Source of the DNA: Candidatus Thorarchaeota archaeon
Lineage (GTDB): Archaea > Asgardarchaeota > Heimdallarchaeia > Hodarchaeales > Hodarchaeaceae
Assembly (NCBI GenBank): GCA_048882505.1
Contig: JBHLRO010000007.1
Coordinates: 1 to 32,000 of the forward strand
Direction of reading: 5' to 3'
DNA length: 32,000 nucleotides
In this document: piece by piece, positions 771 to 18,070 of the stretch
Layout: the number at the start of each line of letters is the position of its first letter
How positions within the stretch are numbered: position 1 is the first letter of the stretch
Translations under genes and position numbers: made by a program
Notes under the pieces: model-generated
Seen by the model: only the letters and a program-made list of their open reading frames with translations
What the model was told of the DNA's origin: nothing
Databases searched by the model: none

Positions 771-3700
771 ATGGTGCATATCAAAGAAATTAAGATGACG
801 GGTTGGAAATCCTATGGCCCTAGTACCGTGCGTATGCCCTTGGCTAAAGGCTTTACATGTATCGTGGGTCCCAACGGGAGTGGGAAATCCAATAGCATAG
901 ATGCTGTAAACTTTTGTCTGGGATTGTTATCCAAGAAAGCCATGCGAGCCGATTCTATGGTAAATCTTCTTTATAATGGAATTGGCGGAAAAAAGCCTAG
1001 TGAAAAAGCAATCGTAGATATTGTATTTGATAATAGTGATTATGCCATTCCCGTTCGGGAACCTGAGATCATAGTCACGCGGGAATTGAAACGTAATGGA
1101 ACTGGAACTTACCGTTTGAATGGGAAGAGAACAACACGTACAGATATCCTTGATAAACTCCGAATCGCGGGAATCGACGTTATTAACAGCTACAACATCA
1201 TAGCGCAGGGGCAGGTTGGGGAAATAGTAGGTATGTCTCCTAATCAGAGAAGGGAACTCATGGAGAATCTTGCAGGCGTAGGACAATTTGATGAGAAAAA
1301 GCAAGCATCTCTGAAAGAGCTGGATGAAGCCAATCGTAGAATGGATGAATTACAACTTCTTGTTAATGAAGTGGGCCGACGAGTTGAGTCTCTTCGGAAG
1401 GAAAAGGAGGATGCAGAACGTTGGCAAACACTGGATACCGAAATACGAGACCACCGATCGCTTTTAATCTCTTACGGATACCATAGGAGTAATCAACAAA
1501 TTTTGGCTCTTGATGAAGAGATCGGGGGTTTTCGGAACCGACAAGAGGAGTTGATGAACGAGCGAACCAATATCGAAACCAAAATCGAGGAGGCCAATGA
1601 GAAAATTCGATCATTAGAAGACCAATTGATCCGTTTAGAAACATCGGTTACGGAGATACGAACTACAGCTGAAGAGAAAAACATCGAAAAAACCAAAATC
1701 GGGGAAAAAGTCGAGTATAATAAGAAAACCATTAATACAAACGAAAAACGTGTCACTAAACTTCAATCCCGTCTTGAACAGATAAATAAACAGATCGAAG
1801 AAGACAAAACACGAAAAGAAGAGCTGGAAGAAGAAAAGAAAAACCTCGTGAAGGAAATTGAAGAAACTCAAGCTTCGCGCGCTCAGCTTGATCTGGAACA
1901 CGAAAAAAAGAGTCAGGAGTATGAAGAAATCAAGAATGAACATGAAGATTGTGAGCGAAGACACCGCGTGGAAAATGATCGTCTAACCAAGACCCAGGTC
2001 TCTTTTGAAGTTGCTCAAAGCATGGTTGATGCATTTCAGAACAATGTGAACGAATTCGAACGCCGTCAAGGCCAGCTCGAAGAACAGATCAAAACAGCTC
2101 AAGAAAAAACTCAGGAATTGAAATCCATTATAGCAGATGACACGACTCGGTTGGAAGAAGCTAGATCCAGGATTGGGGATATAGAAGAAAAAAAGGTAAG
2201 CTTAGACGCGTTGATTGAATCCCTAGATACCCAAATCCGTGAGACAAATGATAGTTATTTGGTTCAGAAAGCTCAGATAGATACAATTTCATCTTTTCTT
2301 AAGACTGAAGCGGGAAAAGAGAATCCCGCGGTGAGCTTTATCAGTGACCGCAAAAATAACGGGGATATGCCAGGTGTTTTAGGAGAATTCCAAAACATCT
2401 CGGGAGGCGATGGTGCAGCTCTCCCGTCAGAAGTCGGCCATCTCTCTGATGCGATCATAACTGATACCGTAGATCATGCTTTAAACTGTATCCAGCTCTT
2501 AAAGGATAACGCCGTTGGCGCTGCCAACTTTATTCCATTGGAACGCTTTAAGCTCTCTCCTACAGATAAGTTCTCGAATATAATTAAGAAAGTACGCGAA
2601 CAGAATGAAATCGTTCCTGATCTGCAAGCCGCCGCCAGAGCGTGGAAAAAGTCCGGATCGACGGTGACAACTGTAGATGGCGACGTTTTTTATTCTAATG
2701 GAATCATTAACGGAGGTTTTCATCTCGCATCCGCGCAGGAGACGGTGGAAACCCTTCGTGCGGAAATGCAGACATCTCAAGACCAGCTTCAAGGCTTGAG
2801 AACACAACTGAAAGAGGAAAAAGAAAACCAAAAGAAACTTCTCCAGCTAGAAAAGACAATTAGCGAATCGATCAAGAAACTGGAAGAAAATATCCAGAAT
2901 GCTGAAATTCAGATCACTCAGCAAGAAAATCAGGTTAATTTATTACGTGAGAATCAGGAGCAAAATCAAACGGAGATTGCTCCTCTCCAGAAGCAGCTCA
3001 CAGAGAAGTCTATAGAGAGAGATGAACAAAAACAACAGATGACGTTTTTCGAGGAGAACATCGTAAAGATCTCGGAAGAACTTCAAGAGATCCAAGCCCG
3101 TCTTGAGGCCGCCGACACCAGGCCCATCTTGGAGAAAATTAATCAGGTGGAACAACAACTCGGAAAACTCCAGGGAAAGCTGGGTGGGGTCGAATCGCGG
3201 ATTGAGGGCATTGAAAATCAAAAAGAAGAACGCGATGCCCGAATTACTGAGACGAATAACGAAATCAATACTGTTCAGATGGAAACTGCCAATTTAGAAG
3301 GCGAAATCCAGGTTCTTGAGGAACAGCTAGCCCAAATTGATTCCCAACTTGAAACCATTCTCGAAAACGAGAAGCAAGTCAATGAGGAGTTCAAAGAAGT
3401 TCGCTCCGAATTAAATTCCCAGAAAAAATACCACTCCACATTGATAAAAGACAAAGAAGGTGTCAATGAAAAGTTCACTAAAGAAGAAGAAAAGGTTACT
3501 GACCTCAAACTTCAGCGTGAACGCCTAGCGGTCGAAGTCGAAAAATTGCAGGAGGAGGCACGGGACAATGACATTTCTTTTCTTCCAGCCGAGGCAGAAG
3601 AACTCAGGGATGTCGATGATAATAAGATCGGCCGGGAGATTTCTCGCAAAACGGAAGAAAAAACCCGTCTTGAACCTGTTAATATGAAGGCACTGAAGGA

Positions 3701-4376
3701 ATTTGAGGAGGAAAACACCCGCTTCATTGAACTTCTTGATCGGCGCGATATTCTGATCGAAGAACGTCAAGTCATTCTCGATTTTATTGAGGAGATCGAA
3801 ACAGAGAAATATTCCGTCTTCATGAAGGTCTTCCGATCAGTAAACAGGCACTTCGGACGGATTTTTAATGAACTTAGTGCCGGCGATGCCCGTCTTATAC
3901 TCGAAAAGGATCCCAAGAAGGGAGAGGACATCTTTGAAGGGGGTATTCTTATTGAAGCGCATCCCGCGGGTAAGAAGGTCGCCTCCCTCGAATCTATGTC
4001 CGGCGGTGAAAAGGCCTTGACTGCTCTCGCCTTTATTTTTGCGGTTCAAACCGTAGATGCGCAGCCCTTCTATATCCTGGACGAAATCGATGCCGCCCTC
4101 GACCCCATGAATGTCCGTCGCGTGGCCAAACTCCTCCATCGCATGTCCCGCCGCGTCGGCGGCACTGATGACGATGATGACGGGACAGCCGCCGCCTCTC
4201 ACCGCTCCCGCACCTCTAATGGCGCCTCTGCCCAATTCCTTGTCATCTCGCACCGGGACATCCTCATGGCGTGGGCTGATCGCTTGTATGGTTGTACAAA
4301 CGTCAAGGGTCTGTCCTCAGTGTTTTCGATCCAGATGTCGGAGGATAAACGGTTAGAACGGGATGCTGCGTTCTGA
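771..4376 (+). CDS. smc: Chromosome segregation protein SMC
   Basis: N-terminal Walker A (GPNGSGKSN), Q-loop (IIAQGQV), long coiled coils, hinge with G-x6-G-x3-GG (GDVFYSNGIINGG), PVNMKAL motif, signature (MSGGEK), Walker B/D-loop (YILDEIDAALD), H-loop (ISHR); 1201 aa. Confidence 0.97.
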   Translation: MVHIKEIKMTGWKSYGPSTVRMPLAKGFTCIVGPNGSGKSNSIDAVNFCLGLLSKKAMRADSMVNLLYNGIGGKKPSEKAIVDIVFDNSDYAIPVREPEIIVTRELKRNGTGTYRLNGKRTTRTDILDKLRIAGIDVINSYNIIAQGQVGEIVGMSPNQRRELMENLAGVGQFDEKKQASLKELDEANRRMDELQLLVNEVGRRVESLRKEKEDAERWQTLDTEIRDHRSLLISYGYHRSNQQILALDEEIGGFRNRQEELMNERTNIETKIEEANEKIRSLEDQLIRLETSVTEIRTTAEEKNIEKTKIGEKVEYNKKTINTNEKRVTKLQSRLEQINKQIEEDKTRKEELEEEKKNLVKEIEETQASRAQLDLEHEKKSQEYEEIKNEHEDCERRHRVENDRLTKTQVSFEVAQSMVDAFQNNVNEFERRQGQLEEQIKTAQEKTQELKSIIADDTTRLEEARSRIGDIEEKKVSLDALIESLDTQIRETNDSYLVQKAQIDTISSFLKTEAGKENPAVSFISDRKNNGDMPGVLGEFQNISGGDGAALPSEVGHLSDAIITDTVDHALNCIQLLKDNAVGAANFIPLERFKLSPTDKFSNIIKKVREQNEIVPDLQAAARAWKKSGSTVTTVDGDVFYSNGIINGGFHLASAQETVETLRAEMQTSQDQLQGLRTQLKEEKENQKKLLQLEKTISESIKKLEENIQNAEIQITQQENQVNLLRENQEQNQTEIAPLQKQLTEKSIERDEQKQQMTFFEENIVKISEELQEIQARLEAADTRPILEKINQVEQQLGKLQGKLGGVESRIEGIENQKEERDARITETNNEINTVQMETANLEGEIQVLEEQLAQIDSQLETILENEKQVNEEFKEVRSELNSQKKYHSTLIKDKEGVNEKFTKEEEKVTDLKLQRERLAVEVEKLQEEARDNDISFLPAEAEELRDVDDNKIGREISRKTEEKTRLEPVNMKALKEFEEENTRFIELLDRRDILIEERQVILDFIEEIETEKYSVFMKVFRSVNRHFGRIFNELSAGDARLILEKDPKKGEDIFEGGILIEAHPAGKKVASLESMSGGEKALTALAFIFAVQTVDAQPFYILDEIDAALDPMNVRRVAKLLHRMSRRVGGTDDDDDGTAAASHRSRTSNGASAQFLVISHRDILMAWADRLYGCTNVKGLSSVFSIQMSEDKRLERDAAF
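4293..4376 (+). repeat. smc 3'-end repeat, copy 0 (the functional gene end; putative attachment site)
   Basis: 84 bp TGTACAAACGTCAAG...GCTGCGTTCTGA, the last 28 codons of smc, reiterated downstream. Confidence 0.95.
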
Positions 4377-4654
4377 AATGGTAAAACGGGCTGGTTTTAT
4401 CAGATTTCAAAAGCCATTATTGCATTTGGTAAAGCAGCCATCCACCCGATGGGGAAAAATCTCCATGGAACGCAGGGGCGAGTGTTTGAGGTTGGGAAAT
4501 GCGAATCGACCAACTGAGAAGGAATTGATCAGAGATTTACGTTTGATGGCACCGATAGTCGAACCTGGTCTTGGTGGAGCTTATTAGTTTTGGAGTGAAG
4601 AAATCAGACTGACTGACCGAAATTATTTGAGAACTAGATAATTCTGTAATCCCT

Positions 4655-5317
4655 ATGGGAAAATCACCCAATTCACCGTCCACGAAAGTAGAAAAGGCAC
4701 TTTATTTAGCCAGCAGTTATACAGGTGAGGTCAAACCAGTCAATCTGGATAAAATGGATAAATCAGCGAAGTTGCATATTGAAAAGATCAAAGAATCTCA
4801 TGCTGAATCGGTCTTAGACTTCGGGTGCGGAGCTGGGGGGATCTTGTTAGCATTACAACAGGCAGGAATAAAGGAAATTCATGGTATTGATGCTTCTCCC
4901 GAAGCCATAGAGATGGTAAAAAAACGATTTGAGAAATTTGGGACTCTCGAAAATACATCATTTACTGCTGGTAACATAATCCAATTTGATCCCCCTATTG
5001 TCGAAGCGGTTTCCTCTCACTTTGTGCTTTGCTGTCATCCCGATGCAATGGGGATGGTCAATAAGGCAACAGAGAAACATCCAGAGATAGTCGTAATCAG
5101 TTTTCCGAAGGATAATTTACTCACTAAATCCGCTGCTACTTTTATAAATACCATGGTGTGGATCGTTAGCCGATTTATATCATCTCTTAGGGGGCTAGGA
5201 TGGTATGCCCATTCTACTACACTGATAAAGGCCAAATTTGAAGAAAATGGGTACCATCTGGTTTTTGCCAAAGAAAGCTTTATTTCGCAAACCCTGGTCT
5301 ATGAAAAAACGAAATGA
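4655..5317 (+). CDS. Class I SAM-dependent methyltransferase (BchM-like family)
   Basis: Motif I VLDFGCGAGG, acidic motif GIDAS, VLCCHPD resembling the BchM-like subfamily; sole gene of segment A. Confidence 0.85.
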   Translation: MGKSPNSPSTKVEKALYLASSYTGEVKPVNLDKMDKSAKLHIEKIKESHAESVLDFGCGAGGILLALQQAGIKEIHGIDASPEAIEMVKKRFEKFGTLENTSFTAGNIIQFDPPIVEAVSSHFVLCCHPDAMGMVNKATEKHPEIVVISFPKDNLLTKSAATFINTMVWIVSRFISSLRGLGWYAHSTTLIKAKFEENGYHLVFAKESFISQTLVYEKTK

Positions 5318-5660
5318 CGGAGTATAAGACGGCAATCCATCACCGAGAATATTCCTAAAAGGTATGATTTTCTCTTTTCTACTATCCTTTCTTAATACCC
5401 TCAAGCAGAATGTCAATTAAGAGTGATTCCTAAACATATAGAATACTCATCGAAAGATAGTGTAGAAGATTCTTGGATTTTTTCTTTTGGTGAACCGAAT
5501 TTTTGACTGATCAACCGGAACCCATCATTACGAGACTAATCCATTCCACCGTAATTGGGATTTTTGCGTTATCGGAAGAAATGGGAGTGAGAACGATCAG
5601 AAGTAATCTCTGAGGGATTATTTTATGAATGCTCTAGGAAATTATATGATACTTTTAGTG

Positions 5661-5744
5661 TGTACAAACGTCAAAGGACTGTCCTCAGTGTTTTCGATCC
5701 AGATGTCGGGAGACAAAAGGCTGGAACGAGAGGCTGCATTCTGA
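5661..5744 (+). repeat. smc 3'-end repeat, copy 1
   Basis: 73/84 identical to 4293-4376; translates CTNVKGLSSVFSIQMSGDKRLEREAAF*. Confidence 0.95.
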
Positions 5745-6151
5745 GGAAAGCCAAAGGACCAAGGCTAACGGTTTATTTTGATTATCTGTAACTAATTATT
5801 CTGACGCCGTAGGCGTTCAGGAAATTTCATCCTGACCGCGTGCTTTTATTACTGTATTAAACCCGTTTTGTTGTTCTTTGGCCAAGTTAATGAAGCTGGA
5901 TTTAGTCTTATTATGAACCAATGAAGGATCTTTTATATTTCGATAAGCAAGAAAACGATGAGTTCTCTCAGAACTAACACCTGTAATAACTAGCCCGCGT
6001 CTCCTGAACCCATACCTACCTCGTCTTCCTCTCTTGTTCTCCATTAGAGGGGAGTAACATTTATGGAGTCGATTGGATGCGAAATTAGGATTTGACGATG
6101 AGTAGTGACATCAACTAATCTTTCAAAGCTCATAGATGGGGAGGGACGTAA

Positions 6152-6859
6152 CTACTGCAATGAAAGGAACAGGATTATGAGGGCACCTACGCCCAGGGTT
6201 ATCAGGGCTAAAATCACTGTGATTTTATGTTCTACTAACAATGTTTTCAGCAGCTCTCGAGACATGGGCTCCATCCCTGCGGTTTTCATCACATTTTCAA
6301 GCTCGCTCTTCTCCTCGATCCTAGTGGGCTCTCTTCTACCTTTCGAGGGATCTATCAAGATAAGGGGATTATAATGAGTCCAGAGCATCCATCCGAACAG
6401 GATCGAGATTACAAAGGCCGAAATTTGGTCAAGAGAATAGATTGCTAAATCAGACAGCGGATAAATCCAGACTGGGGAGGTACGGGTCGGAAAGGGCGTG
6501 AAACTGAAGTCAACCACATCGTGAGACAGCCAGGCGAGGCTCACGGCGGCCAGCGTCCACGAAAGATCTTTGGCCCTATCGGGAAACCATTGAAAAATCA
6601 ACAGGAGGAAAATCACCGCTAAGACTGCGAAGAGAATAGGGAGGAGCAGGGAATGCCAAAACCCTCGGTGAGAGAAGAAGAATTGGAGCGTAGGACTCTC
6701 AGGAACCTGTACAAATTTAAGAATCCCATCAACATCAGGGAAGATGCCCGCAAATGCCCCGAGAACCAAAGTTTTCAGTCGATCTTTCTTGTCCCATCGA
6801 TAGAACGGGTAAGCGATCAGAAATCCCGCAAGGAAGTGAGTGGTATACCCAGGACTCAT
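6152..6859 (-). CDS. Membrane-bound metal-dependent hydrolase (YdjM-like)
   Basis: N-terminal His (THFLAG), GIFPDVD, HRGFWHSLL and SHDVVD motifs with several TM helices. Confidence 0.85.
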   Translation of the reverse strand: MSPGYTTHFLAGFLIAYPFYRWDKKDRLKTLVLGAFAGIFPDVDGILKFVQVPESPTLQFFFSHRGFWHSLLLPILFAVLAVIFLLLIFQWFPDRAKDLSWTLAAVSLAWLSHDVVDFSFTPFPTRTSPVWIYPLSDLAIYSLDQISAFVISILFGWMLWTHYNPLILIDPSKGRREPTRIEEKSELENVMKTAGMEPMSRELLKTLLVEHKITVILALITLGVGALIILFLSLQ

Positions 6860-7003
6860 CAGATAAGACTCCTTGTCTCACATTTTAATAAAAACACGAG
6901 TCAATTTCTCGCCATCCATTTACGATCTTCTGGCCAAGCTGATGACAATTTTGCCATATCACTTTCCTTTAGACCTCGTCAGTAACCCTTAATTCCCCAG
7001 TCA

Positions 7004-7492
7004 TTATTTTGGCCACGGAATTGGTCTTGGAGGCCGAAGTCGTCCAAATATGTCCGCCAGTCGCTCCTTCATCTCCTCCAGTTCTTTCATAGTACACATT
7101 ACGGCTTCCGCACCAGCTCCCCATGCTTCAAAACATTCCTCCTCCGATCGAGGCGGATCTTCGGCTTCACACTTTGCGAGAGCTGCAACATAGGATATTG
7201 TCGCTTCAAGACAAGGATCCTTCGCAAGTGAAACCTTCCCAAGAGGCGGGCAAGTCTCATCAATCACCTCTTTGAAATCGGTTAGAATTTCCTGGCTTAG
7301 GTTGGCTGTAGGTCGTCCTGCTAAGAAAATAACTCGCATCGAGTAGCCGAGCGTGACTATAGCCGCGATTTGCGTCTCATTTAGCTCTTTCAAGGGTTCT
7401 AATAAACTTCTTGACGCCTTGACAAACTCATCGAGCTCATTTGCAAGCTTCTGTCTTGCTTGCTTAAGTTCTTGTCTGGTGGTTTTTTCCAT
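7004..7492 (-). CDS. Hypothetical helical, Cys-containing protein (likely start MEKTTRQ at 7492; ORF track extends to 7573)
   Basis: 162-aa ORF with protein-like composition; ATG lies 2 nt after the stop of the upstream small ORF. Confidence 0.7.
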   Translation of the reverse strand: MEKTTRQELKQARQKLANELDEFVKASRSLLEPLKELNETQIAAIVTLGYSMRVIFLAGRPTANLSQEILTDFKEVIDETCPPLGKVSLAKDPCLEATISYVAALAKCEAEDPPRSEEECFEAWGAGAEAVMCTMKELEEMKERLADIFGRLRPPRPIPWPK

Positions 7493-7494
7493 TA

Positions 7495-7701
7495 TTACAC
7501 ATCCCCATCCTTTTCCTGATTTATCAAATCCGATTTTCTTAATCTGTTGTAGAGGAGATCTTGGAAGTTCCAACGGTAACTAAATTCTCTTGGATAAGCA
7601 TAGAGATTTGAAGATGATATATAAAAGGGTAAGGGGCAGCTTTTCACCATATTTTCAAGAAACATGGTGAATTTGCTTCCAACCACCTCTAGATCTGTCA
7701 T
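7495..7701 (-). CDS. Small hypothetical protein
   Basis: 68-aa ORF whose stop sits 2 nt before the next ATG (operon-like spacing); no recognisable motif. Confidence 0.35.
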   Translation of the reverse strand: MTDLEVVGSKFTMFLENMVKSCPLPFYISSSNLYAYPREFSYRWNFQDLLYNRLRKSDLINQEKDGDV

Positions 7702-8104
7702 TGATTCACTCTATCAATCCCCCATTTTTTCATCTTTTCCCACCTGCATGTCGAGATTCTCTACTAAGATAAATTCTTTCCCCTTTTCGATAAATCAAAC
7801 ATTTGAATGTTGTGGTCGAGTGATTGATATGTTCTTCTCCTTCAGTTAATCCTTCTTCAATCGATGGGAAGGATTAAAGGATTACAGGCGCGCTAAGGCA
7901 GAGATAACCAAGATATGGAGACTCTTCCTTTTCTCGTCTGTTGCTCCAAATGGCGAAAGCAGGCCCGATCGAAAAGAAGGATCATTGACTTTACGGCTCC
8001 TTTGGGGAAAATAGGGGGGATTGCACATTGGTTGTGGTATCATATATTTCGGGGCCAGTTTTCATACCAATTCATTGAGTTAATGTATACTGAGGTATCT
8101 TCAA

Positions 8105-8188
8105 AGTACAAACGTCAAAGGGCTGTCCTCGGTCTTTTCGATCCAGATGTCGGAGGATAAACGGCTGAAGCGGGATGCTGCGTTCTGA
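8105..8188 (+). repeat. smc 3'-end repeat, copy 2
   Basis: 75/84 identical to copy 0; translates STNVKGLSSVFSIQMSEDKRLKRDAAF*. Confidence 0.95.
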
Positions 8189-8323
8189 GAAAAAAAAATA
8201 CGTCATTCTGGAGCGTTCTACAAAGCTAGTTATTCCAGAAGAATCCCTTTGCGATAGTAACCCCTTATAGCTTTTTAAACTGATATAACCCATTCTCAGG
8301 GGTGAATTCCTTAGGGTAGGAAC

Positions 8324-9541
8324 ATGAAACGCTGGCAATCCATTATTGTTCCGATCTTTTCAGTTTTGGTTTTGGCACATATTCTATGGGATGGACAACA
8401 TTTCCTTCTGCCCATTGAACAGGAAGTTTTGGTTAGAGCCAATTTCAAGAGTCCTCCTGCTCCTAATGTCCCTGATCACATCTATACTCAACATGACCCT
8501 ATCAATATCATCGGTGACAACGATCTGAAAAATTCGTTTCCAGGCGGGGGGACGTTGAGTGACCCTATTCGGATTGAAGGGTTCAACATCACTGCAGCGG
8601 CTGAGGATTTGATTTCCATTAGCGGAACTTCGTCCTATTTCCGTATCGCAAATAACCTACTTAACGGTTATAGTGGGTTGGGTAATGGGATTTCTCTTTA
8701 TAATGTGGCAAACGGAGAAATCTGTAGCAATGTTATCTTTGGTAATAACCAAAACGGAATCAAACTATACGTTTCAAACAACAACAGTGTTCATAACAAT
8801 TTTCTATATAAAAATGGTTTTGCTGAAATAAATTTAGCCCGTTCTAGCAACAATAAGATCTCGGAAAACACCGTTTCAAAAAATAAATTTGCAGCGGGAA
8901 TATATTTTGTCAAGGATAATTTTGACAACGTTATCTCGAATAACACATTATTTAATAACGGCATTGGAATCAGATTCGAGTCAGAAGCAAACAGAAACGT
9001 AGTAATACAGAATTACTTGTATGAGAATAGAGTAGGAGTCCATCTAGAGTTTGTTAGGGATATTTCAGTTAGACAGAACACCATTAGAGATAATCTGGCA
9101 GGAATAAAAGTTACCAGCGGGGATGGATTTAGTTTTTCACGAAATATAACCATATCTAGAAATCTTATTTTTCATAATCAAGGATATGGTATGATTTTGG
9201 AACAATTTTCCAAAGATATCCTGATTTTAGGTAACAATTTTATCAAGAATAACCAGAATAAGAACTCTCAAGCATTTGATGGCGGGGAGAATAATACATT
9301 TGCCTATAATTACTGGAATGAGTGGACGAAACCCGATTATAATCAGGATGGCTTTGTAGATCTTCCTTACAATATTGACGGATCAACAAATAATCAGGAT
9401 GGTTTCTCTTGGGCTTCCCCTCCATTTCATAATACTGAGATCCCCCTGGATCACACTATCGCCGCTTCTATTCTCTTAGTTTTGATTCTTGGTACGCTAG
9501 GATTCTCGATACTTCTACAGCAACGTCGGTCACATGGGTAG
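8324..9541 (+). CDS. Secreted/membrane-anchored right-handed beta-helix protein (NosD-like repeats)
   Basis: N-terminal signal-like helix, HDPINIIGD...GTLSDPIRIEG leader, many Asn-rich I-x-x-N-x-(I/L)-x-x-N...GI repeats, N-x-W-N closing motif, C-terminal TM followed by basic residues. Confidence 0.85.
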   Translation: MKRWQSIIVPIFSVLVLAHILWDGQHFLLPIEQEVLVRANFKSPPAPNVPDHIYTQHDPINIIGDNDLKNSFPGGGTLSDPIRIEGFNITAAAEDLISISGTSSYFRIANNLLNGYSGLGNGISLYNVANGEICSNVIFGNNQNGIKLYVSNNNSVHNNFLYKNGFAEINLARSSNNKISENTVSKNKFAAGIYFVKDNFDNVISNNTLFNNGIGIRFESEANRNVVIQNYLYENRVGVHLEFVRDISVRQNTIRDNLAGIKVTSGDGFSFSRNITISRNLIFHNQGYGMILEQFSKDILILGNNFIKNNQNKNSQAFDGGENNTFAYNYWNEWTKPDYNQDGFVDLPYNIDGSTNNQDGFSWASPPFHNTEIPLDHTIAASILLVLILGTLGFSILLQQRRSHG

Positions 9542-9568
9542 AACCGAGTAATAATGAAAGATCTTTAA

Positions 9569-9652
9569 TGTACAAACGTCAAGGGCCTGTCTTCAGTGTT
9601 TTCCATCCAGATGTCGGAGGATAAACGGCTGGAGCAGGATGCTGCGTTCTAA
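9569..9652 (+). repeat. smc 3'-end repeat, copy 3
   Basis: 76/84 identical to copy 0; translates CTNVKGLSSVFSIQMSEDKRLEQDAAF* with stop changed TGA to TAA. Confidence 0.95.
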
Positions 9653-10141
9653 AAACGCTGAAAAAGATAAGGAGAAGAGTTATTTTCGAATTTGAGTTAA
9701 AGAGATCTGGAATATCGTGGAGGAAGTCCGAATGGGATGGGCGGAGACGGGATGCGGGATATTGAATACCCAGATTGGCATAAATCCTTTATCAGCGGTT
9801 AGAAGCACGTGATACGGAGCCTCGTATTTTGTGAAGCCATCGAAACCGTATTTCCAAAGGTAAACCTGTTTGGTCTTTTACAATTTCATCTTTTTCATTT
9901 AAATCGGTACTCATTGCGATCTTTCCATAACCTACAATTTTTAATGCAGTAAAAATATTTTCAACCATGTACTAAGAACATGGGATTAAAGCCGGGATAC
10001 AAAGAACGAAAAAGCCACGTCCTCCCCTAATCTGATACATACTATCAGAAAACCTCGGTAATGATAACCTGGGGTTTTGAAGCTTGAATACCTTTATCGT
10101 GGTATTAAAAGAATATCAAGACAACTGAAGGGTACCGTACA

Positions 10142-11317
10142 TTGCCAATATTTACATCTGAAGTAACCTGGGCTATCGTGATACGATTAGTAGTCTTGGT
10201 AGGCGAACTTGCATTAATATACATCGTTGCACGGAAGTACTTGAGATCAGACTATTCTCGGATTTTAATCATTCTGTTATTAGCGTTAATTGCCAATCTT
10301 GTTTCCAATGGGTTAAGTTTTAGCGCCTTATTTATTTCCGAAGCAGACCAAAGTTTATTCCATTACATAGAGACCTTGGATTTTTTGAGTATTATTCTCT
10401 CGCTTTACTTTTTTCTCTTAATCTTTGAATATTTTGAATACGAAACCCTACTTACTCAACAACAGCTGATTGGAACCGTTTTAACAACCGTTACAACTAT
10501 CTTTATCCTTTATGCGATGCCCCAAGAAAACTGGTTAATCAATGAACAGTTGTATTTCCAAAGCCTTGATTCTCCCATTCTGGTTTTCTTAAACCTATTC
10601 GGTGCTATATTAGGGGTTTTTATGATAAGAACTCTACGTAGAGGTTTGAAGGACGTCTGGATTACTCAGAGAGAACAAATAATTACAATGATTGTAAGTG
10701 TTTGTATAATTTCGTTCATTCCGTCCCTGTTTTCATTATTAGTACTCTTTTCCGCTGACCAAGTTTCCTTAATTGTGGAACCATTAGTAAGAGGAGCAAT
10801 ACTAATAGGTTATATAATTTTGGCAATTTCCTTTGGTAAAACAAATCATTACAGCCAATATAATCGACGAAAAGCAGATAAGGTCCTTGTAACAAACCTA
10901 AGTGGGATCCCGCTTTTTCATTATGATTTTAAAGAAAATGTTCATTACATAAATGAAACGCTATTTTCCGGAGCTGTAGTAGCAATCACTATGCTAATGT
11001 CAGAATCCATTAAGTCTCCATCTCCGATTGCAGAGGTATTGATGAAGAACAAATATCGGTTAATGTTAGAAACACATGCATCCTTTATTGCCTTAGTTCT
11101 GACGCCACAAGCTAATTCCTACCTTAGAGATTCGATAGAACGATTTGCGCTAGCTTTTGATCAAAAATTTTCTTCAATCATAACTTCAGGAGAGGTTTTA
11201 GACCTTAATCTTTTCGTTAAATCGGGGCTTGGAGTATTGTTTGAAAATTTCGGAATATCTACTGCCAACGTCAAGGAAATAGCAGCAGTTTTAACGTTTG
11301 AAGAGGTAATAACGTAA
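10142..11317 (+). CDS. Multi-pass (about 7 TM) membrane protein with C-terminal longin-like domain
   Basis: About 7 hydrophobic helices in the first ~230 aa, then KVLVTNLSGIPLFHYDF...LFSGAVVAITMLMSE...FALAFDQKF, a longin-like pattern; TTG start. Confidence 0.7.
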   Translation: MPIFTSEVTWAIVIRLVVLVGELALIYIVARKYLRSDYSRILIILLLALIANLVSNGLSFSALFISEADQSLFHYIETLDFLSIILSLYFFLLIFEYFEYETLLTQQQLIGTVLTTVTTIFILYAMPQENWLINEQLYFQSLDSPILVFLNLFGAILGVFMIRTLRRGLKDVWITQREQIITMIVSVCIISFIPSLFSLLVLFSADQVSLIVEPLVRGAILIGYIILAISFGKTNHYSQYNRRKADKVLVTNLSGIPLFHYDFKENVHYINETLFSGAVVAITMLMSESIKSPSPIAEVLMKNKYRLMLETHASFIALVLTPQANSYLRDSIERFALAFDQKFSSIITSGEVLDLNLFVKSGLGVLFENFGISTANVKEIAAVLTFEEVIT

Positions 11318-11385
11318 GATACCATGTCTTGGTATATAACACCAGTATGATTCGAGCTAATTTTAGAGTAAACGGACCGAGCCAG

Positions 11386-12228
11386 ATGAAAAAGATTAAC
11401 TCAAATATTATATATGGTACTGCCTGGAAAGAAGAAAAAACCGAGCCATTAACCTTAAATGCACTTATGGCAGGATTTAACTCAATCGATACTGCTAATC
11501 AACGTAAACACTATAACGAAGAAGGGGTGGGGAACGGCATACGTACTTTTATAAGAGCAACAGGAACAACCCGAGATGAATTATTTATTCAAACGAAATT
11601 TACCTACAAAGAAGGTCAAGATCACCGTTTGCCTTTTGACCCTAACGCTGACCCAGCGACCCAAGTTAAACAGTCGTTTTATAGTTCATTAGAACATCTC
11701 CAAATCGATTATATTGACTCATACCTGTTACATGGGCCCTCAACACGTTTTGGAATATCTGAGCTTGATTGGGGGGTCTGGACAACGATGGAGGAATTAA
11801 TCTCGGAAGGAAAAGTTAACCATTTAGGTATTAGCAATGTTAATGCTGAACAACTGAAGATTTTATTTGAAAAGATAGGGATTAAACCGTCTTTTGTCCA
11901 AAATCGTTGCTTTGCGAGACTTGGATGGGACAATAAAGTTCGTGAAATATGCAAAAACAATAATATCATTTATCAAGGATTCTCGTTACTAACCGCCAAT
12001 CGAGAGGTATTAACCCATCCTAGATTAGTACAAATGAGTAAAACAATAAATAAAACAATTCCGCAGATAATTTTTAGTTTTGCTCGACAAATTGGCATTT
12101 TACCCTTAACAGGAACAACTAATCGGAAACATATGGAAGAAGACCTCGAAAGCGTGAATATAACGCTTACAAAAGAACAGGTTGATAGTCTTACAAACGT
12201 TTCAATTGAAAGATCCCTTGATTATTGA
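11386..12228 (+). CDS. Aldo/keto reductase (likely start MKKINS at 11386; ORF track starts at 11329)
   Basis: YGTAW, IDTA-x4-Y, ELFIQTK, SLEHLQIDYIDSYLLHGP, LGISN, ILPLTGTTN motifs. Confidence 0.9.
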   Translation: MKKINSNIIYGTAWKEEKTEPLTLNALMAGFNSIDTANQRKHYNEEGVGNGIRTFIRATGTTRDELFIQTKFTYKEGQDHRLPFDPNADPATQVKQSFYSSLEHLQIDYIDSYLLHGPSTRFGISELDWGVWTTMEELISEGKVNHLGISNVNAEQLKILFEKIGIKPSFVQNRCFARLGWDNKVREICKNNNIIYQGFSLLTANREVLTHPRLVQMSKTINKTIPQIIFSFARQIGILPLTGTTNRKHMEEDLESVNITLTKEQVDSLTNVSIERSLDY

Positions 12229-12263
12229 AAATACCCCTTCTTCCCAGAATTTGGTATCTAGTA

Positions 12264-12347
12264 ATAACAAGCATCAAAGGTTTATCTTCTGTCTCTTCGA
12301 TCCAAATGGCGGAGAATCATTGCTGGGAAAGAGATGCTGTCTTCTGA
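12264..12347 (+). repeat. smc 3'-end repeat, copy 4 (decayed, full length)
   Basis: About 59/84 identical without gaps; translates ITSIKGLSSVSSIQMAENHCWERDAVF*. Confidence 0.85.
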
Positions 12348-12456
12348 GGAAAGCTAAAGAGCCAAGCAAATGAGCAAGAAGAAATGAAAGTCAAACGAGG
12401 CAGTTCAAGGAGATTCGAAGAATATTATAGTCCGTAGGGCTATTTTGCTACAAGGA

Positions 12457-12930
12457 TTATCCTTTTCTCAATATTACTTCTACGATCTCTTTGCCTCGTG
12501 CATTAGCATAATACTTATCGTACCCGATAACGGAAAAACCACACTTCTCTAGAACTCTTATCGATCTACTGTTATCTTTAGCTGCCCGCGCGTAAATAGG
12601 ACGAACTTCCACTTCATCCAGGAATAATTGAACTGCTTGACCTGCAATTCCTCTTCCCCAGTAGTCTCTATCAATCCAGTAAGTTATCTCAGGACGATCA
12701 AAAAGGACAAATTTTGCTACGTGACCTATAATGCTCCCTTCGTAATAAATAGTTCTAGCAATTATGTCCTTATCGGACAACAAACGATTCCAATGGTTAT
12801 CAAATGATTTTCTATTTGAAGGGTCTTCAGGAATAAACGCAGCCATATACTGGGCTTTTTTATCCTGCATATGTTGGAAAAAAAAGTCCAGATCGGAGGT
12901 TTTTACCTTCTTTAGTCTTATTTCAACCAA
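12457..12930 (-). CDS. GNAT N-acetyltransferase, RimJ/RimL family
   Basis: EITYWIDRDYWGRGIA acetyl-CoA motif and N-x-x-SIRVLEKCGF. Confidence 0.9.
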   Translation of the reverse strand: MVEIRLKKVKTSDLDFFFQHMQDKKAQYMAAFIPEDPSNRKSFDNHWNRLLSDKDIIARTIYYEGSIIGHVAKFVLFDRPEITYWIDRDYWGRGIAGQAVQLFLDEVEVRPIYARAAKDNSRSIRVLEKCGFSVIGYDKYYANARGKEIVEVILRKG

Positions 12931-13254
12931 GATAGATCCTTATCCTGTCTATTAACTTATTTCCTAATCGTTGTAGGAGAATGAAAAAATGTAATAGTAG
13001 CTTTGTCTTGTTCAGCTACACCTTTTCGAACAATGGATACTCTCTTGCTACTATTATTGATGATTCTAGGGCTAGAGTTCACCCCTTAACGTTGGCAGAT
13101 ACCCTTTTTGACAAAAGATAGTTTGAAGATCGTAGTATGAACGGTTGGAGAGGGATATTACATTCTGATAGGCTTCAGAGGCATAAAAAACTGTTATTTT
13201 TGAGCTTAAGTTAAGGTGAATCCCAATTTACAATCGAGCACATAGATCGCCGAA

Positions 13255-14184
13255 TTAAGGTTGAAAATCCTCATGATTTATTCCGCAACGAACCCCCTGG
13301 TTTTCTATTTGATAGGCGTAAGCCATACGAGGGGTATTAAACGCCAATCCAATTGCAGCAGAGGTTAAGACAATTATGCCCCCCAATCCTTTTACTTTAA
13401 GATCCAAATCATGGACTGTTAGACTAGCGGCCTCTTGGGCTGAGGAGCCAGCTTTGATGTATTGAATGCATTTATTTGTTGCCAAGATTCGGATTAAATC
13501 TTCGCCGTACCCCGTTGCTGCAGCCCCACCAATCCCCTTTTCCACGTACGCGCCAGAGCCCCATAAAGGAGTATCGCCAACACGACCAGCTCGTTTGTAC
13601 GGAGTACCTCCAGTCGACACTGCCACGCAGAAACTCCCAGCTTGATCAAGGCAGACACAGCCTACTGTTCCGTGGCGATCTGGTCTCCCTTTGTTTCTAA
13701 AGGCATCTTTAGGTTGATAATGCTTCTTCTCTTTAATCGAATGGTATCTCTCTAACTCTCGCCCAATCAAAAGATCTTGAGGTTGAACCTCAGGAACACC
13801 CATTTCTTGCGCGAAAAGATTAGCTCCTTTCCCTACGAGCATTATATGATCAGTTTTTTCCATTACAAGGCGAGCCACCTTGACAGGGTTAGTAACATTC
13901 TGAATTGCAGCGACAGAGCCGATCTTATAATCATCTGTCGCAATAATGGCATCCATTTCTACTTCAGCAATTTGGTTGACAAATGATCCTTTACCTGCGT
14001 CAAAGGTTGGATTTTTTTCCATTAGCGTGATGGCGTGTTCTGCAGCATCGAGAGCAATCCCATCTCCATCCTCCAAAATTTCACTTGCCTCAACGCATGC
14101 CCTTCTAACTCCCTTTACATGGGCATCAACAAGATTCTCTGGAATATTCCACGCACCTCCGTGGATAATTACACCATACCTCAT
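13255..14184 (-). CDS. iaaA: Isoaspartyl peptidase / L-asparaginase (Ntn-hydrolase)
   Basis: IIHGGAW, FDAGKGS, EMDA, autocleavage site HG|TVGCV, STGG, GRVGDTP, TGYGE motifs. Confidence 0.9.
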   Translation of the reverse strand: MRYGVIIHGGAWNIPENLVDAHVKGVRRACVEASEILEDGDGIALDAAEHAITLMEKNPTFDAGKGSFVNQIAEVEMDAIIATDDYKIGSVAAIQNVTNPVKVARLVMEKTDHIMLVGKGANLFAQEMGVPEVQPQDLLIGRELERYHSIKEKKHYQPKDAFRNKGRPDRHGTVGCVCLDQAGSFCVAVSTGGTPYKRAGRVGDTPLWGSGAYVEKGIGGAAATGYGEDLIRILATNKCIQYIKAGSSAQEAASLTVHDLDLKVKGLGGIIVLTSAAIGLAFNTPRMAYAYQIENQGVRCGINHEDFQP

Positions 14185-14221
14185 TCAATACACTTCTTTG
14201 ATATTCGAAAATTAGGGTCTT

Positions 14222-14269
14222 GATCAGATTTCAGTGAATCAGAGGCTGGAAGGGGGCGTATCCTTCTGA
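14222..14269 (+). repeat. smc 3'-end repeat, copy 5 (3'-half remnant)
   Basis: About 32/49 identical to 4328-4376 with one gap; ends TTCTGA; shares AGGCTGGAA with copy 1; intergenic. Confidence 0.55.
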
Positions 14270-14307
14270 GAAGAAAAGGAGAAGTCACAAGATGGAGAAC
14301 CCCCCAG

Positions 14308-15432
14308 TTAGATTTCCGTGAAGCTGTCAACTGTCTCTTGGTCCAATCTTTTTAGGATTTCAATTATCAGGGTGATTGCCTTATTAACATCAGCTAGATC
14401 TAAGATCCCGTTGTGGGAATGAATATGGCGTGTGGGAACTCCCAATACTATCGATGGACACCCTGACCCCGTTATGTGGATTATTCCTGCATCAGTTCCT
14501 CCACCCATCACGACTGAAGCTTGATAGTCAATCCCTATTTCTTTCGCAACATCGATAATAAAATGACGTAATCGAGGGTTCGGAATCATTGTCGCATCTC
14601 CTGCAAGTATAGATACCCCTTTTGACATCTCAGCGGGAGCTTTCAATTTTTCGACCCCCGGAACATCACTGGAAATATCCACTTCTAAGGCAACTCCTAA
14701 ATCGGGATTTATGGTCTGAGCTGCTGTTCGTGCCCCCCGTAGTCCTACTTCTTCTTGGACAGTTGCTACCCCAAATATCTGATTCGGGTGTGAAACATTT
14801 CCTTCCTTAATTTTCCTTACTACTTCTGCTGCGATAAATGCTCCGATTCTGTCATCAAATGCTTTTCCAACTGCCAAAGTTGTTTTTCTCTCTTTTTCTT
14901 TGCCGTTATTATCTTTCTCAATCTGAATTCGTTCCAATAGTTCAAATTTGGAATCAGGTGTAATCGGATCACCTATTTGAATTCCAAGATTCTCAATTTC
15001 CTTTTTACTTTTACAACCTACATCGATGAACATTTTTTCTTTTGTAACAACTTTTTTCCTTGTTTCAGGATCAAGAACATGGGGAGGAGGGGCAGTAATT
15101 ATTCCACGGTAGGTTTTTCCATTCCTGTTTCGAACTAACACCCTTTGCGTGAGTAAGGATTGGTCCCACCATCCTCCTATTTGATGAAAGGTCAGATATC
15201 CCAGATCGTTTATTCCTGTCACCAACATTCCTATTTCATCTATATGGCCCGCAAGCATAATTTTGGGACCTGTGTTCCCAATTTTAAAAATCAAGGAACC
15301 TGTTTTATCTTTGAATACTTCATCGGAAAATTTACTGACATATTCCTTGATAATTCTTGATACTTCAATTTCATGCCCTGGAGGTCCAAATGCGTTACTC
15401 AACTTCTCTAAAAAAGGTATTTCAATGTCCAT
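14308..15432 (-). CDS. M42 family metallo-aminopeptidase (TET/FrvX-like)
   Basis: LAGHIDEIG, GKAFDDRIG, QEEVGLRGA, GGTDAG, RHIHSH motifs. Confidence 0.93.
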   Translation of the reverse strand: MDIEIPFLEKLSNAFGPPGHEIEVSRIIKEYVSKFSDEVFKDKTGSLIFKIGNTGPKIMLAGHIDEIGMLVTGINDLGYLTFHQIGGWWDQSLLTQRVLVRNRNGKTYRGIITAPPPHVLDPETRKKVVTKEKMFIDVGCKSKKEIENLGIQIGDPITPDSKFELLERIQIEKDNNGKEKERKTTLAVGKAFDDRIGAFIAAEVVRKIKEGNVSHPNQIFGVATVQEEVGLRGARTAAQTINPDLGVALEVDISSDVPGVEKLKAPAEMSKGVSILAGDATMIPNPRLRHFIIDVAKEIGIDYQASVVMGGGTDAGIIHITGSGCPSIVLGVPTRHIHSHNGILDLADVNKAITLIIEILKRLDQETVDSFTEI

Positions 15433-15674
15433 CTGATTCTTTCTCCATTTTACGGATTCTATTTAGAATGTAAGTTGGTGAAAGGTGTAAAAGAAAAAGA
15501 TTGTGATGGGGTGAGATCACCAAATTATTACTTGATCTGGTCTCTCTACGGAAAGGGAAATCGGACAAATTAATTCTGCTGCACCTTGCCGGCCAAACGT
15601 AAACAAACAAACCTCAGCCAAAATTCCATAAAGTAATAAATGCCTCCGCCGACGATATGCAGGGTTAGTAGATC

Positions 15675-16178
15675 ATGTCACCAAGTCCGACAAGCGACAA
15701 TGAAATATTAATGCATGAAAGGGTGGTCATAAAGCGTCGCCAGCTTTGGAAAAAACTGAAGGGTCCTGATTTTCAACCTGAATGGTTTATGACCAGGATT
15801 AAACCGCATATGTGGGCTATCGATGAAATTTATCGCCATATGCTTGGCTCTGAGATTTTTTATATTCATAGCAAATTTGGAGAAAGAAGGATTCGTGATG
15901 AATGGGCCGTAGGAGCCCAATGGGTTGGAGACAGGCACTTTGGCTTTAAAGAGAAGAGACATTATTCGAGAGAAGAGCTTTTTGAACTAACTGGGCCGGT
16001 GGAACAGAAATCACGGGATTGTCTCCAGGATTTGACAGAGAACGACCTCGGCACCCCTGTAATGGCTCCTTGGGGGGAAGAAATGACCTTTAGAGAGATA
16101 ATTCATCATTGTTTTGAACATGAACATCAGCATCGAGGCCAAATCCAATACCTCATTACGTATTTTAAACAACTTTAG
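15675..16178 (+). CDS. DinB-like family protein
   Basis: Upstream His (YRHM) and C-terminal HCFEHEHQHRGQI metal-binding motif. Confidence 0.8.
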   Translation: MSPSPTSDNEILMHERVVIKRRQLWKKLKGPDFQPEWFMTRIKPHMWAIDEIYRHMLGSEIFYIHSKFGERRIRDEWAVGAQWVGDRHFGFKEKRHYSREELFELTGPVEQKSRDCLQDLTENDLGTPVMAPWGEEMTFREIIHHCFEHEHQHRGQIQYLITYFKQL

Positions 16179-16294
16179 TGCCTTCGCGATACTTCATGCA
16201 AAATCCTTGGAATCCAGAACTATGATTCTCCACCATCATTAAAGGATTGTAATCTGTCATTTCCATTCGGATGTAGGAGGATCAAGCAAAAATG

Positions 16295-17371
16295 TTATCC
16301 TACGATTTTTCCGTGCATCATGATTTTAGTAGGAGGTTTTCTTATTATTTCTATATTCTTTCTGGGATCTTCTAGGAAGAATATTAAGTTTGCATCTGAT
16401 CCTTCCTCAATACCGTTTTCACCCAAGTAATTTCTTGGTATAGTTGTCGCAGTGGCTATAGCATCTTCAACGGAGAGCCCAAATTCATACATTTTAAGAA
16501 TTTCGTTTCCCACTGATCCGTGCGGAAGCATGTCCGTACCAGCCAAAAGAGTCAGATGATCGTTTGCCAAAGGAATAAGGTTTTTCATGTTATCGAGGAT
16601 AAAAGGAATTTGTTTATCCATTCCAGTATAATTTTTTAACAAATTGATAATCGAAAGAGTGGGAGTCCAAGCAATGCCTTTTTGTGCCATCTGATCCAAT
16701 TGGTTCTTCGATAAGTTGAACCCGTGCTCTAAAGTGTCTACTCCAGAATTTATAGCGAGTCGAACACCTTCCTTATTGGTTACGTGAACACCTACTCTAC
16801 CACCTGTTTTTTGAACTGCTTTCACTGTCTGGTGAACGTTTTCTTCAGCGAAATTTAATTGAGAATTTGAGAAATCTCCTCCCTTAGGAAAGTCAATAAT
16901 AATTTTTACCCATTGGAATCCGTCTTTTACCTGATTCACTGCCCTTTTCTCTAGGTTTTCACCCTTAACTGGATCAATGAAATCAAAATAGCCATATTTC
17001 GGGGCGAGGAATGACCCCGCTGAATGGACAATTGGTAGTCCATCATTTCGTGCGAGATTAAGTGTGCTAGATTCATTCACAGTTCCAATATCTCTTAATA
17101 ATAGCGTTCCTGATTCCAGGTGAGCTCTTCTATTTGCTTGCACCAATTCCTTACTTGCTGGATTTAGGTTAAAGTTATTGAAATCGATTGTTAGATGAAC
17201 ATGGGCATCCACAAGACCTGGTGCCACAAAAACGGGTTTTTCAAACAATAAAGGAGCATCCTGCTCTTCTTCAAACGTAATCTTGTTATTTACAACCCAA
17301 AACTCTGTGATTTCGTCATCGAAGGGAAGTTCATATGCTTTAATTCGAAAACCGTTGGATTCGCTTTTCAC
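16295..17371 (-). CDS. Amidohydrolase family protein
   Basis: PGLVDAHVHL (HxH), WVKI, VGVH, DTLEHG, AGTD, GIEEGSDANL motifs. Confidence 0.9.
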   Translation of the reverse strand: MKSESNGFRIKAYELPFDDEITEFWVVNNKITFEEEQDAPLLFEKPVFVAPGLVDAHVHLTIDFNNFNLNPASKELVQANRRAHLESGTLLLRDIGTVNESSTLNLARNDGLPIVHSAGSFLAPKYGYFDFIDPVKGENLEKRAVNQVKDGFQWVKIIIDFPKGGDFSNSQLNFAEENVHQTVKAVQKTGGRVGVHVTNKEGVRLAINSGVDTLEHGFNLSKNQLDQMAQKGIAWTPTLSIINLLKNYTGMDKQIPFILDNMKNLIPLANDHLTLLAGTDMLPHGSVGNEILKMYEFGLSVEDAIATATTIPRNYLGENGIEEGSDANLIFFLEDPRKNIEIIRKPPTKIMMHGKIVG

Positions 17372-17735: not shown

Positions 17736-17790
17736 TATGGCTGCCCAGACGTCAAATGCTTGTTCTTGTGTTTCCATCCCGATATCGGTG
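17736..17790 (+). repeat. smc 3'-end repeat, copy 6 (5'-part remnant)
   Basis: About 41/57 identical to smc 4287-4343 with two 1-nt gaps (TATGGCTGCCCAGACGTCAAATGCTTG...); intergenic. Confidence 0.65.
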
Positions 17791-18070
17791 TTTGGGTTTC
17801 CTTTCAATTACGGACTCATTGAGAGTCATAAGACGATTGGTAACTAAACAAAGAAGTTACTTTAGATTATAGAAAACTGAGAGTTCTAAGATTTGCACCA
17901 TTTCTGTGAATAAACACCGAATAAATCCTAAAGAAAAAGAAAAATTTTCTACAATAGGGTGAAACTTAGCCTCAGTCCATGATTGTTGGAATGAAACATG
18001 GAAGTATTATTTAAATATTCAAGAAAGGGGCATAGAACATTATTTATCGACTTTACTGGTACTCGCCTCA

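What the first reader, a model, noticed from the sequence alone, without database searches (positions are those of the whole stretch)
5661..9652. Non-coding smc-end copies diverged almost only at synonymous sites: stored interchangeable SMC C-termini
Relative to copy 0, copies 1-3 show 18 synonymous codon changes (including TGA to TAA at the stop) versus 5 amino-acid changes over 84 codons, with no indels. Intergenic DNA should not show this bias. Each copy must have evolved as a functional SMC C-terminus, either in this lineage or on elements cycling through related hosts. Recombination between copy 0 and any copy would delete the intervening cargo and give a working smc with a variant tail (...SGDKRLEREAAF, ...RLKRDAAF, ...RLEQDAAF), so excision would be tolerated.
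Basis: partly seen in the sequence, partly recalled or inferred. Interest (0 to 1): 0.75.

Follow-up and report, generated by a model that had tools for sequence, protein, structure and literature searches.

The report
Spare smc tails mark inserted cassettes
Behind the chromosome-organising gene smc of an Asgard archaeon lie spare copies of the gene's last 27 codons that differ almost only at silent positions; they are best read as former ends of the gene, pushed aside each time a small block of foreign genes was inserted, not as a store of alternative ends.

Summary
Copies at 5661, 8105 and 9569 match the smc tail (4293-4376) without indels. I count 18 silent codon changes against 5 amino-acid changes, dN/dS 0.04-0.12. 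Duplication in place followed by free decay is rejected.

The copies are part of a longer row. It includes 12264 and decayed copies at 16229 and 17742. The row separates 1-2-gene blocks of ordinary enzymes and holds no recombinase gene.

Among 24 genomes of the order, only this one and its sister MAG (G016) carry the row. In the 19 other genus members scpA follows smc directly. Here scpA lies 68 kb away.

The sister shares the distal blocks but has different blocks next to smc. The switch points between the two genomes fall inside the copies.

The same kind of event, an incoming new tail and a displaced old tail, is seen at an M42 peptidase gene in the sister and at tfb in this genome. The process is therefore not smc-specific.

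Best reading: serial insertion guided by tail homology, or by an enzyme encoded elsewhere. The closest precedent is e14 at icd/icdC in E. coli. "Stored interchangeable tails" is not supported as a function.

This scan had already noted similar tail-copy arrays behind tfb in this and another Hodarchaeales genome.

The parts
771..4376 (+). smc gene (1201 aa), intact
   Evidence: ORF; orthologues in 21 genus genomes
4293..4376 (+). copy 0: working tail of smc, last 27 codons plus TGA
4377..5660 (+). block A: SAM methyltransferase gene 4655-5317; not found in any other genus genome, including the sister
   Evidence: Pfam; genus search
5661..5744 (+). copy 1 (87% to copy 0; 9 silent, 2 replacement differences)
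5745..8104 (.). block B: YdjM-family membrane protein (6152-6859, minus strand) and a 189-aa protein of no family (7004-7573, minus strand); apart from one 132-nt match in G013, not found in other genus genomes
8105..8188 (+). copy 2 (90%); from about base 28 onward, and its right flank, it is orthologous to a copy in the sister genome, while its first 28 bases are not
8189..9568 (+). block C: NosD/beta-helix protein 8324-9541; shared with the sister genome (91%)
9569..9652 (+). copy 3 (91%, TAA stop); its orthologue in the sister genome is frameshifted
9653..12263 (+). block D: 391-aa membrane protein 10142-11317 and aldo/keto reductase 11329-12228; shared with the sister from 10062 on, where the sister has one more small block and a part-copy
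12264..12347 (+). copy 4, decayed (69%, 13 replacement differences); the left half goes with the upstream block in both genomes, while the right half and right flank differ
12348..16228 (.). further single-gene modules: GNAT acetyltransferase, asparaginase, M42 peptidase, DinB-like protein; the sister differs here by whole-gene insertions
16229..16285 (+). copy 5, decayed part-copy (E 1e-4 genome-wide), with an orthologue in the sister
17742..17789 (+). copy 6, decayed part-copy (E about 1 alone). It is supported by an orthologue in the sister and by a 1.1-kb sister-specific insert that starts exactly at its end

Best explanation
The copies are displaced former tails of smc. Small gene blocks without a recombinase were inserted again and again by a crossover inside the last 27 codons of smc. 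Each incoming DNA brought a tail that had evolved as coding sequence in a related lineage, and that tail became the new working end. The previous end was pushed downstream, where it slowly decays. Newest blocks lie next to smc and oldest lie farthest away. I think the crossover is guided by the tail homology itself, using host homologous recombination. The substrate would be either a circle carrying a tail copy or DNA from a related strain with a different array (unequal exchange). I do not think a dedicated smc-specific integrase is involved. Shown: coding-type divergence, the polarity of the array, switch points inside the copies, absence of a recombinase gene, and recurrence at other gene tails. 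Inferred: the enzyme, the form of the incoming DNA, and how a new gene first comes to lie between two copies.
For: Coding constraint holds in both halves of the copies, and in-place decay is rejected. The sister genome holds two more in-frame copies, one with 16 silent and 4 replacement differences. The array occurs only in G000 and G016 of 24 order genomes. All 19 other genus genomes have scpA directly behind smc, whereas in G000 it is 68 kb downstream. Distal blocks are shared with G016 at 83-91%, proximal blocks differ, and blocks A and B are missing from every other genus genome apart from a 132-nt match in G013. Four switch points between G000 and G016 fall inside copies, at about bases 28-57, the longest stretch of identity. 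In G016 a 1.1-kb block entered the tail of the M42 peptidase gene. The displaced tail plus flank matches G000 (84%), while the new working tail carries 3 silent and 1 replacement codon change. Tail copies with the same silent bias lie behind tfb on contig C11. Stray smc tails with other boundaries lie on G000 C5 and, 149 nt long, in G011. The only tyrosine recombinase in G000 and in G016 is the Xer orthologue found across the genus. G000 has no SSV-type integrase and no resolvase. All cargo genes are ordinary enzymes or membrane proteins. The junctions stand in contigs of two independent studies.
Against: Five copies begin at the same base, at (T)GTACA, and have weakly similar cargo ends just upstream. 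That looks more like a defined site than free homologous exchange. It could also be inherited from one founding event. Homologous exchange alone does not explain how a new gene first gets between two copies. Eighty-four bases with about 10% mismatch is a short substrate. Copy 3 is pristine in G000 but frameshifted in G016 (about 3 versus 10 lineage-specific changes by hand count on the rows, one-sided binomial p about 0.05, not run through a tool), which hints at gene conversion or maintenance that I cannot explain. No circular or deleted form was seen.
Confidence: 0.45

Rival explanations
1. A site-specific recombinase encoded elsewhere (the single XerA, or an unrecognised enzyme on an unassembled element) recombines circular cassettes at a core in the middle of the copy. 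The cassettes would work like Xer-exploiting elements or integron cassettes.
For: The best-conserved block in all copies, decayed ones included, is central. It can be written as 11-bp imperfect inverted arms (7-8 of 11) around a 7-bp spacer. The switch points between the two genomes map to it. Several copies share a sharp 5' boundary. The layout is a polar array without an integrase in cis.
Against: The inverted repeat is no better than chance: by my own estimate of roughly 500 placements in 100 nt, about 0.6 such matches are expected by chance (hand calculation, no tool run). The block is also the stretch with the least codon freedom, so it would be conserved and favoured for exchange anyway. 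The block does not recur elsewhere in the genome. Events of the same kind occur at tfb and the M42 tail, which have unrelated sequences. A fixed crossover would leave the left halves untranslated for ever, yet they too vary almost only at silent sites. There is no conserved hairpin.
Confidence: 0.3
2. A homing-type endonuclease cuts the smc tail in array-free or older alleles. Repair then copies in a cassette together with a silently recoded, cut-resistant tail, as with free-standing homing endonuclease genes and fungal mitochondrial mORFs.
For: It would directly explain silent recoding of the working tail together with a displaced old tail. Earlier notes of this scan link tfb tail arrays in Hodarchaeales to a LAGLIDADG-like protein (not verified here).
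Against: Pfam finds no endonuclease domain in any block of the G000 or G016 smc arrays. The 408-aa protein of unknown family in the tfb array of G000 has no paralogue near smc.
Confidence: 0.1
3. One reading: the copies are kept as a store of alternative SMC C-termini that the cell swaps in by recombination.
For: Copies 1-3 are intact, in frame and conservative. Any exchange with copy 0 would leave a working gene (sequence logic; e14/icd precedent).
Against: There is no diversifying signal (dN/dS 0.04-0.12). Distal copies and the orthologue of copy 3 in G016 decay. Nineteen related species carry no store at all. The same scars occur behind other genes.
Confidence: 0.05
4. Assembly artefact, or plain tandem duplication with neutral decay.
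For: Logan's k=31 contigs break at copies 0 and 1, which share a 31-base word.
Against: Cargo-to-copy junctions lie inside contigs from two studies. An independent MAG has the same design and shares junctions. Neutral decay is rejected.
Confidence: 0.02

Closest known systems
Prophage e14 (and phage 21) at the icd gene of E. coli, with the icdC pseudo-tail
   Same: The element sits inside the 3' end of an essential-type gene and supplies the working tail. The old tail remains as a C-terminal fragment at the far end. The two tails differ by a cluster of silent changes plus a few conservative replacements. Excision gives a working chimera (PMC13626634, citing Hill et al. 1989).
   Different: e14 is one 15-kb element with its own integrase. 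Here there are at least six small blocks in a row, none with a recombinase, and the switch points lie mid-copy.
Tandem accretion of genomic islands with integrase-less members (cis-mobilisable elements of streptococci; tandem SGI1 at trmE, PMC2297512)
   Same: Direct repeats of a gene's 3' end delimit several units in a row, and some units lack an integrase. The streptococcal elements are cited from my own knowledge. For SGI1 only the title and abstract were seen.
   Different: Those arrays contain or depend on a known cognate integrase. None is present in G000 or G016 apart from the housekeeping Xer orthologue.
Integron cassette arrays and attC clusters without an integrase (CALINs), reported also in archaea
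   Same: Units of 1-2 genes, new units apparently added at one fixed proximal site, and content that varies between sister genomes.
   Different: There is no IntI and no attC-type hairpin. The repeat is a protein-coding gene tail under coding constraint. Genes lie in both orientations.
Mobile endonuclease ORFs of fungal mitochondria that duplicate the host gene's C-terminus
   Same: A new working tail arrives with the insert and the old tail is left behind as a pseudo-copy.
   Different: No endonuclease gene is recognisable in these blocks.

Membership tests
Integrase-borne integrative element at a gene's 3' end (e14/icd type) | Direct repeats made of the target gene's tail, with the working gene left intact | tested here: met
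Integrase-borne integrative element at a gene's 3' end (e14/icd type) | Tyrosine or serine integrase encoded in the element next to an att site | tested here: not met
   Pfam finds none on any block ORF. Genome-wide, PF00589 gives only the Xer orthologue on contig C5; PF16795 is below cut-off; PF00239 is absent in G000.
Integrase-borne integrative element at a gene's 3' end (e14/icd type) | Excised circular form or empty site in the population | tested here: inconclusive
   Only contigs could be laid and they showed no joints. The 19 related species have the empty arrangement smc-scpA.
Integron | IntI integrase next to attI | tested here: not met
   none of the ORFs of 100 aa or more in the 10 kb upstream of smc in G016 was tested against Pfam (ORF list only)
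Integron | attC sites that fold as imperfect hairpins | tested here: not met
   Consensus fold -9.1 kcal/mol over 108 columns, covariation term -0.47
Integron | Row of small cassettes with the newest at the proximal site | tested here: met
   Proximal blocks differ and distal blocks are shared between G000 and G016; copies decay with distance.
Xer-dependent elements / dif modules | 28-bp dif-type site: 11-bp inverted arms around a 6-bp spacer | tested here: inconclusive
   Best case is 7-8 of 11 with a 7-bp spacer, not beyond chance. No sequence of an archaeal dif site could be taken from the paper's text.
Xer-dependent elements / dif modules | Host Xer recombinase present | tested here: met
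   One PF00589 gene, E 1e-47, orthologous in the four other genus genomes searched (G016, G009, G011, G007)
Free-standing homing endonuclease with C-terminal duplication | Endonuclease gene (LAGLIDADG, HNH, GIY-YIG) in or beside the insert | tested here: not met
   No such Pfam domain in any block
Free-standing homing endonuclease with C-terminal duplication | Cleavage of the insert-free allele | not testable with these tools
   needs an enzyme assay

The most novel reading that the evidence does not exclude
Hodarchaeales use the tails of conserved genes (smc, tfb, a peptidase gene and others) as landing pads for a gene-capture process. It needs no cassette-borne or adjacent recombinase, builds integron-like polar arrays, and each time swaps in a tail from a related lineage. 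[quoted passage not shown]
Probability: 0.3. Interest if true: 0.8.

Novelty: new variant of a known kind. Interest (0 to 1): 0.55.

Why it matters
If the reading is right, the silent-site pattern records how foreign genes enter this Asgard lineage. Each insertion replaces the end of an essential gene with a working end from a relative, so the gene never breaks. Here the process has also split the otherwise invariant smc-scpA pair by 68 kb. A recurrent route of gene acquisition without an integrase, in the archaea closest to eukaryotes, bears on how their large accessory gene sets are built. It can be tested with long reads from the same sediments.

Tried and rejected
1. Exact and degenerate patterns of the tail found nothing in viral contigs or metagenome contigs, and only the sister MAG in genome contigs. 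No free element and no donor allele turned up.
2. Contigs of four runs were laid on 3000-19000. No joints were seen, and only contigs were available. One X2 contig has a different left neighbour at 8106 (23 bases), resembling a G016 block end. This is too short to build on.
3. Rfam gave no match in the window.
4. There is no attC-like conserved fold.
5. The central 13-mer with one mismatch scattered over 24 places in the genome with no pattern.
6. Homologues of the block A methyltransferase (56-79% identical) exist in other Heimdall-type MAGs. Homology stops at the coding sequence and no smc tail lies nearby.
7. The 408-aa protein in the tfb array has no Pfam family and no paralogue near smc.
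8. The surroundings of the stray copy on C5 hold no repeats.
9. Weak profile hits at 13130-13168 and 14222-14269 (E 2-4) are not counted as copies.
10. Three of the apparent tail repeats on contig C6 are ordinary tandem paralogues.
Full report
THE OBSERVATION

smc is the ORF 771-4376. Its last 27 codons plus stop (4293-4376) recur without gaps at 5661, 8105 and 9569. Identity to copy 0 is 87-91%, and profile E-values against the whole 4.3-Mb genome are 1e-24 to 1e-26.

By Nei-Gojobori, the copies differ from copy 0 by 9, 7 and 6 silent and 2, 2 and 1 replacement differences. That gives dN/dS of 0.04-0.07, and 0.06-0.12 among copies 1-3 themselves. Thirteen of the 19 variable columns are third codon positions (p 0.002).

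In-frame stops lie just upstream of the copies, so none is the end of a longer ORF.

If the copies were resident duplicates decaying freely, 76% of the differences between two of them should change the protein. Observed shares are 23-33% (p 8e-5 to 8e-3). Against the working tail, 62% is expected and 14-22% is seen. The bias holds in both halves of the copy.

WHAT THE COPIES BELONG TO

The row is longer than the finding states. A decayed copy lies at 12264 (69% identity, 13 replacement differences). Part-copies lie at 16229 and 17742.

Between the copies lie blocks of one or two genes, in either orientation:
- a SAM methyltransferase;
- a YdjM-family membrane protein with a 189-aa protein of no family;
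- a NosD/beta-helix protein;
- a membrane protein with an aldo/keto reductase;
- then GNAT acetyltransferase, asparaginase, M42 peptidase, a DinB-like protein and an amidohydrolase.

None of these is a recombinase, transposase or nuclease.

Genome-wide, G000 has a single tyrosine recombinase. It is the Xer orthologue found in the four other genus genomes searched, and it lies on another contig. G000 has no SSV-type integrase above cut-off and no resolvase.

COMPARISON WITH RELATIVES

The window is the start of contig C7 of a Heimdall-type (Hodarchaeales) MAG. Of the 24 genomes searched in the order, only G000 (5 copies) and its closest relative G016 (4) carry several tail copies. G011 has one stray copy.

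In all 19 other genus genomes scpA starts within about 200 bases of the smc stop. In G000, scpA and its usual neighbours lie at C7:72.7 kb, 68 kb downstream and in the same orientation.

The G016 array can be followed over three contigs that overlap imperfectly. From copy 2 outward it shares blocks with G000 at 83-91% identity. Next to smc it holds other blocks: a DUF5615/PIN-like gene, an 831-aa beta-helix protein and a TPR protein.

It also has extra blocks at several copy positions. These include an M32 carboxypeptidase, an esterase-like gene and a creatininase.

Blocks A and B of G000 were not found in any other genus genome, apart from one 132-nt match to block B in G013. So units next to smc are the youngest and the far ones the oldest, which fits the decay gradient of the copies.

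G016 adds two more in-frame copies. One differs from copy 0 by 16 silent and 4 replacement differences.

All copies resemble the G000/G016 working tails (70-78 of 84 bases) far more than the tails of three other genus species (56-61). Any donors are therefore unsampled members of this clade.

WHERE THE EXCHANGE HAPPENS

Four junctions were compared between the two genomes.
- At copy 2 the upstream flank is unrelated and the first 28 bases are only about 60% alike, while the rest and the right flank are about 92% identical.
- At copy 4 the left flank and left half are shared, while the right half and right flank are not.
- At the copy at 17742 a 1.1-kb G016-specific insert begins right after the central block.
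- At 10062 shared sequence resumes right after the central block of a G016 part-copy.

So block boundaries lie in the middle of the copies, at about bases 28-57, and not at their ends.

That middle block can be drawn as 11-bp inverted arms (7-8 of 11) around 7 bases. This is no better than chance (by my own estimate, not a tool run, about 0.6 such matches are expected among roughly 500 placements in 100 nt). It is also the part of the tail with the least codon freedom, so it is the longest run of identity between any two copies. The motif does not recur elsewhere in the genome. The copies have no conserved fold.

THE PROCESS IS NOT SMC-SPECIFIC

In G016 a 1.1-kb block carrying a 230-aa gene sits in the tail of the M42 peptidase gene. 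The displaced tail plus its flank matches G000's tail and flank (84%). The new working tail differs by three silent and one replacement codon change, and it comes with a diverged version of the flank. This is a dated, clean instance of [quoted passage not shown].

A screen of all gene tails in G000 finds a second array behind tfb on contig C11, again with mostly silent differences, and a single case behind an MFS gene.

A decayed smc tail with deletions lies alone on contig C5. G011 holds a 149-nt decayed smc tail on another contig. Both show other 5' boundaries.

MECHANISM

The general picture is well supported: serial insertion inside the tail, replacement of the tail, displacement of the old one. 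For the enzyme I favour homology-guided exchange by host recombination (0.45), for five reasons.
- Unrelated tails are used.
- No recombinase is linked to the blocks.
- Switch points sit at the longest identity.
- Copy boundaries vary between events.
- The left halves, which a fixed crossover would never place in the working gene, also show coding-type variation.

Against this view, five copies share a sharp start at (T)GTACA with weakly similar cargo ends. Homology alone also does not explain how a new gene first gets between two copies.

A recombinase acting in trans (0.3) and a homing-type nuclease (0.1) remain open.

KNOWN PRECEDENT AND NOVELTY

e14 at icd is the textbook analogue. The prophage supplies the working icd tail, icdC is the displaced tail, and excision produces a run of silent changes plus two conservative replacements and a working enzyme (PMC13626634).

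What differs here is:
- the many small units without an integrase;
- the mid-copy boundaries;
- the recurrence at several genes;
- the host, an Asgard archaeon;
- the splitting of smc from scpA.

I found no description of smc as an insertion target.

Earlier notes of this scan had flagged similar arrays behind tfb in this and another Hodarchaeales genome. Of these I confirmed only the tfb tail copies in G000.

SOUNDNESS OF THE ASSEMBLY

Logan contigs of the likely source run, and of a run from a second study, contain the cargo-to-copy junctions at 99-100% identity. G016 is an independent MAG with shared junctions.

Noticed in passing
window 4376 to G000 contig C7 about 72640 (beyond the window): The smc-scpA pair is adjacent in all 19 other genus genomes but is split by about 68 kb in G000. 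scpA and its usual downstream neighbours follow at C7:72.7-77.9 kb. No smc tail remnant lies just upstream of scpA.
   Followed up: partly
window 4071-4376: GC3 rises to 0.64-0.70 in the last 300 bases of smc, against about 0.42 over the rest of the gene and 0.31-0.56 in the cargo genes. The rise starts about 220 bases upstream of the repeat. It could be an imported tract or biased gene conversion at a recombination hot spot.
   Followed up: partly
L059:8647-8722 and L059:9616-9700 (G016 contig C97); window 14262-14351: In the sister genome a 1.1-kb block is inserted in the tail of the M42 peptidase gene. The old tail and flank are displaced, and a silently diverged new tail is in use.
   Followed up: yes
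L063 (G000 contig C11:49000-62000): Three further copies of the last 17-20 codons of tfb lie 4.8, 7.8 and 9.7 kb downstream of tfb. They differ mostly at silent sites and are separated by unrelated genes, including a P-type ATPase.
   Followed up: partly
G000 contig C5:67699-67761; L070 (G011 contig C2, about 273000): Stray, decayed smc tail copies lie away from smc: 61 bases with internal deletions in G000, and 149 bases (72% to G011's own tail) in G011.
   Followed up: partly
window 5745-5765, 12348-12368; 8189-8215; 9653-9665: Similarity between some copies runs 10-20 bases past the stop codon and sorts them into pairs: copies 1 and 4; copy 2 with a G016 copy; copy 3 with the G016 version of copy 4. 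It is as if a piece of the donor's downstream flank travelled with the tail.
   Followed up: no
window 8106 (run X2): One contig from an independent study joins a copy-2-like sequence to a different left neighbour that resembles the end of a G016-specific small block. This hints that block order differs between strains.
   Followed up: no
window 9569-9652 versus L059:1339-1421: Copy 3 is intact in G000 but frameshifted and much more changed in G016, although both flanks are orthologous. Gene conversion from the working tail in G000 is possible.
   Followed up: partly
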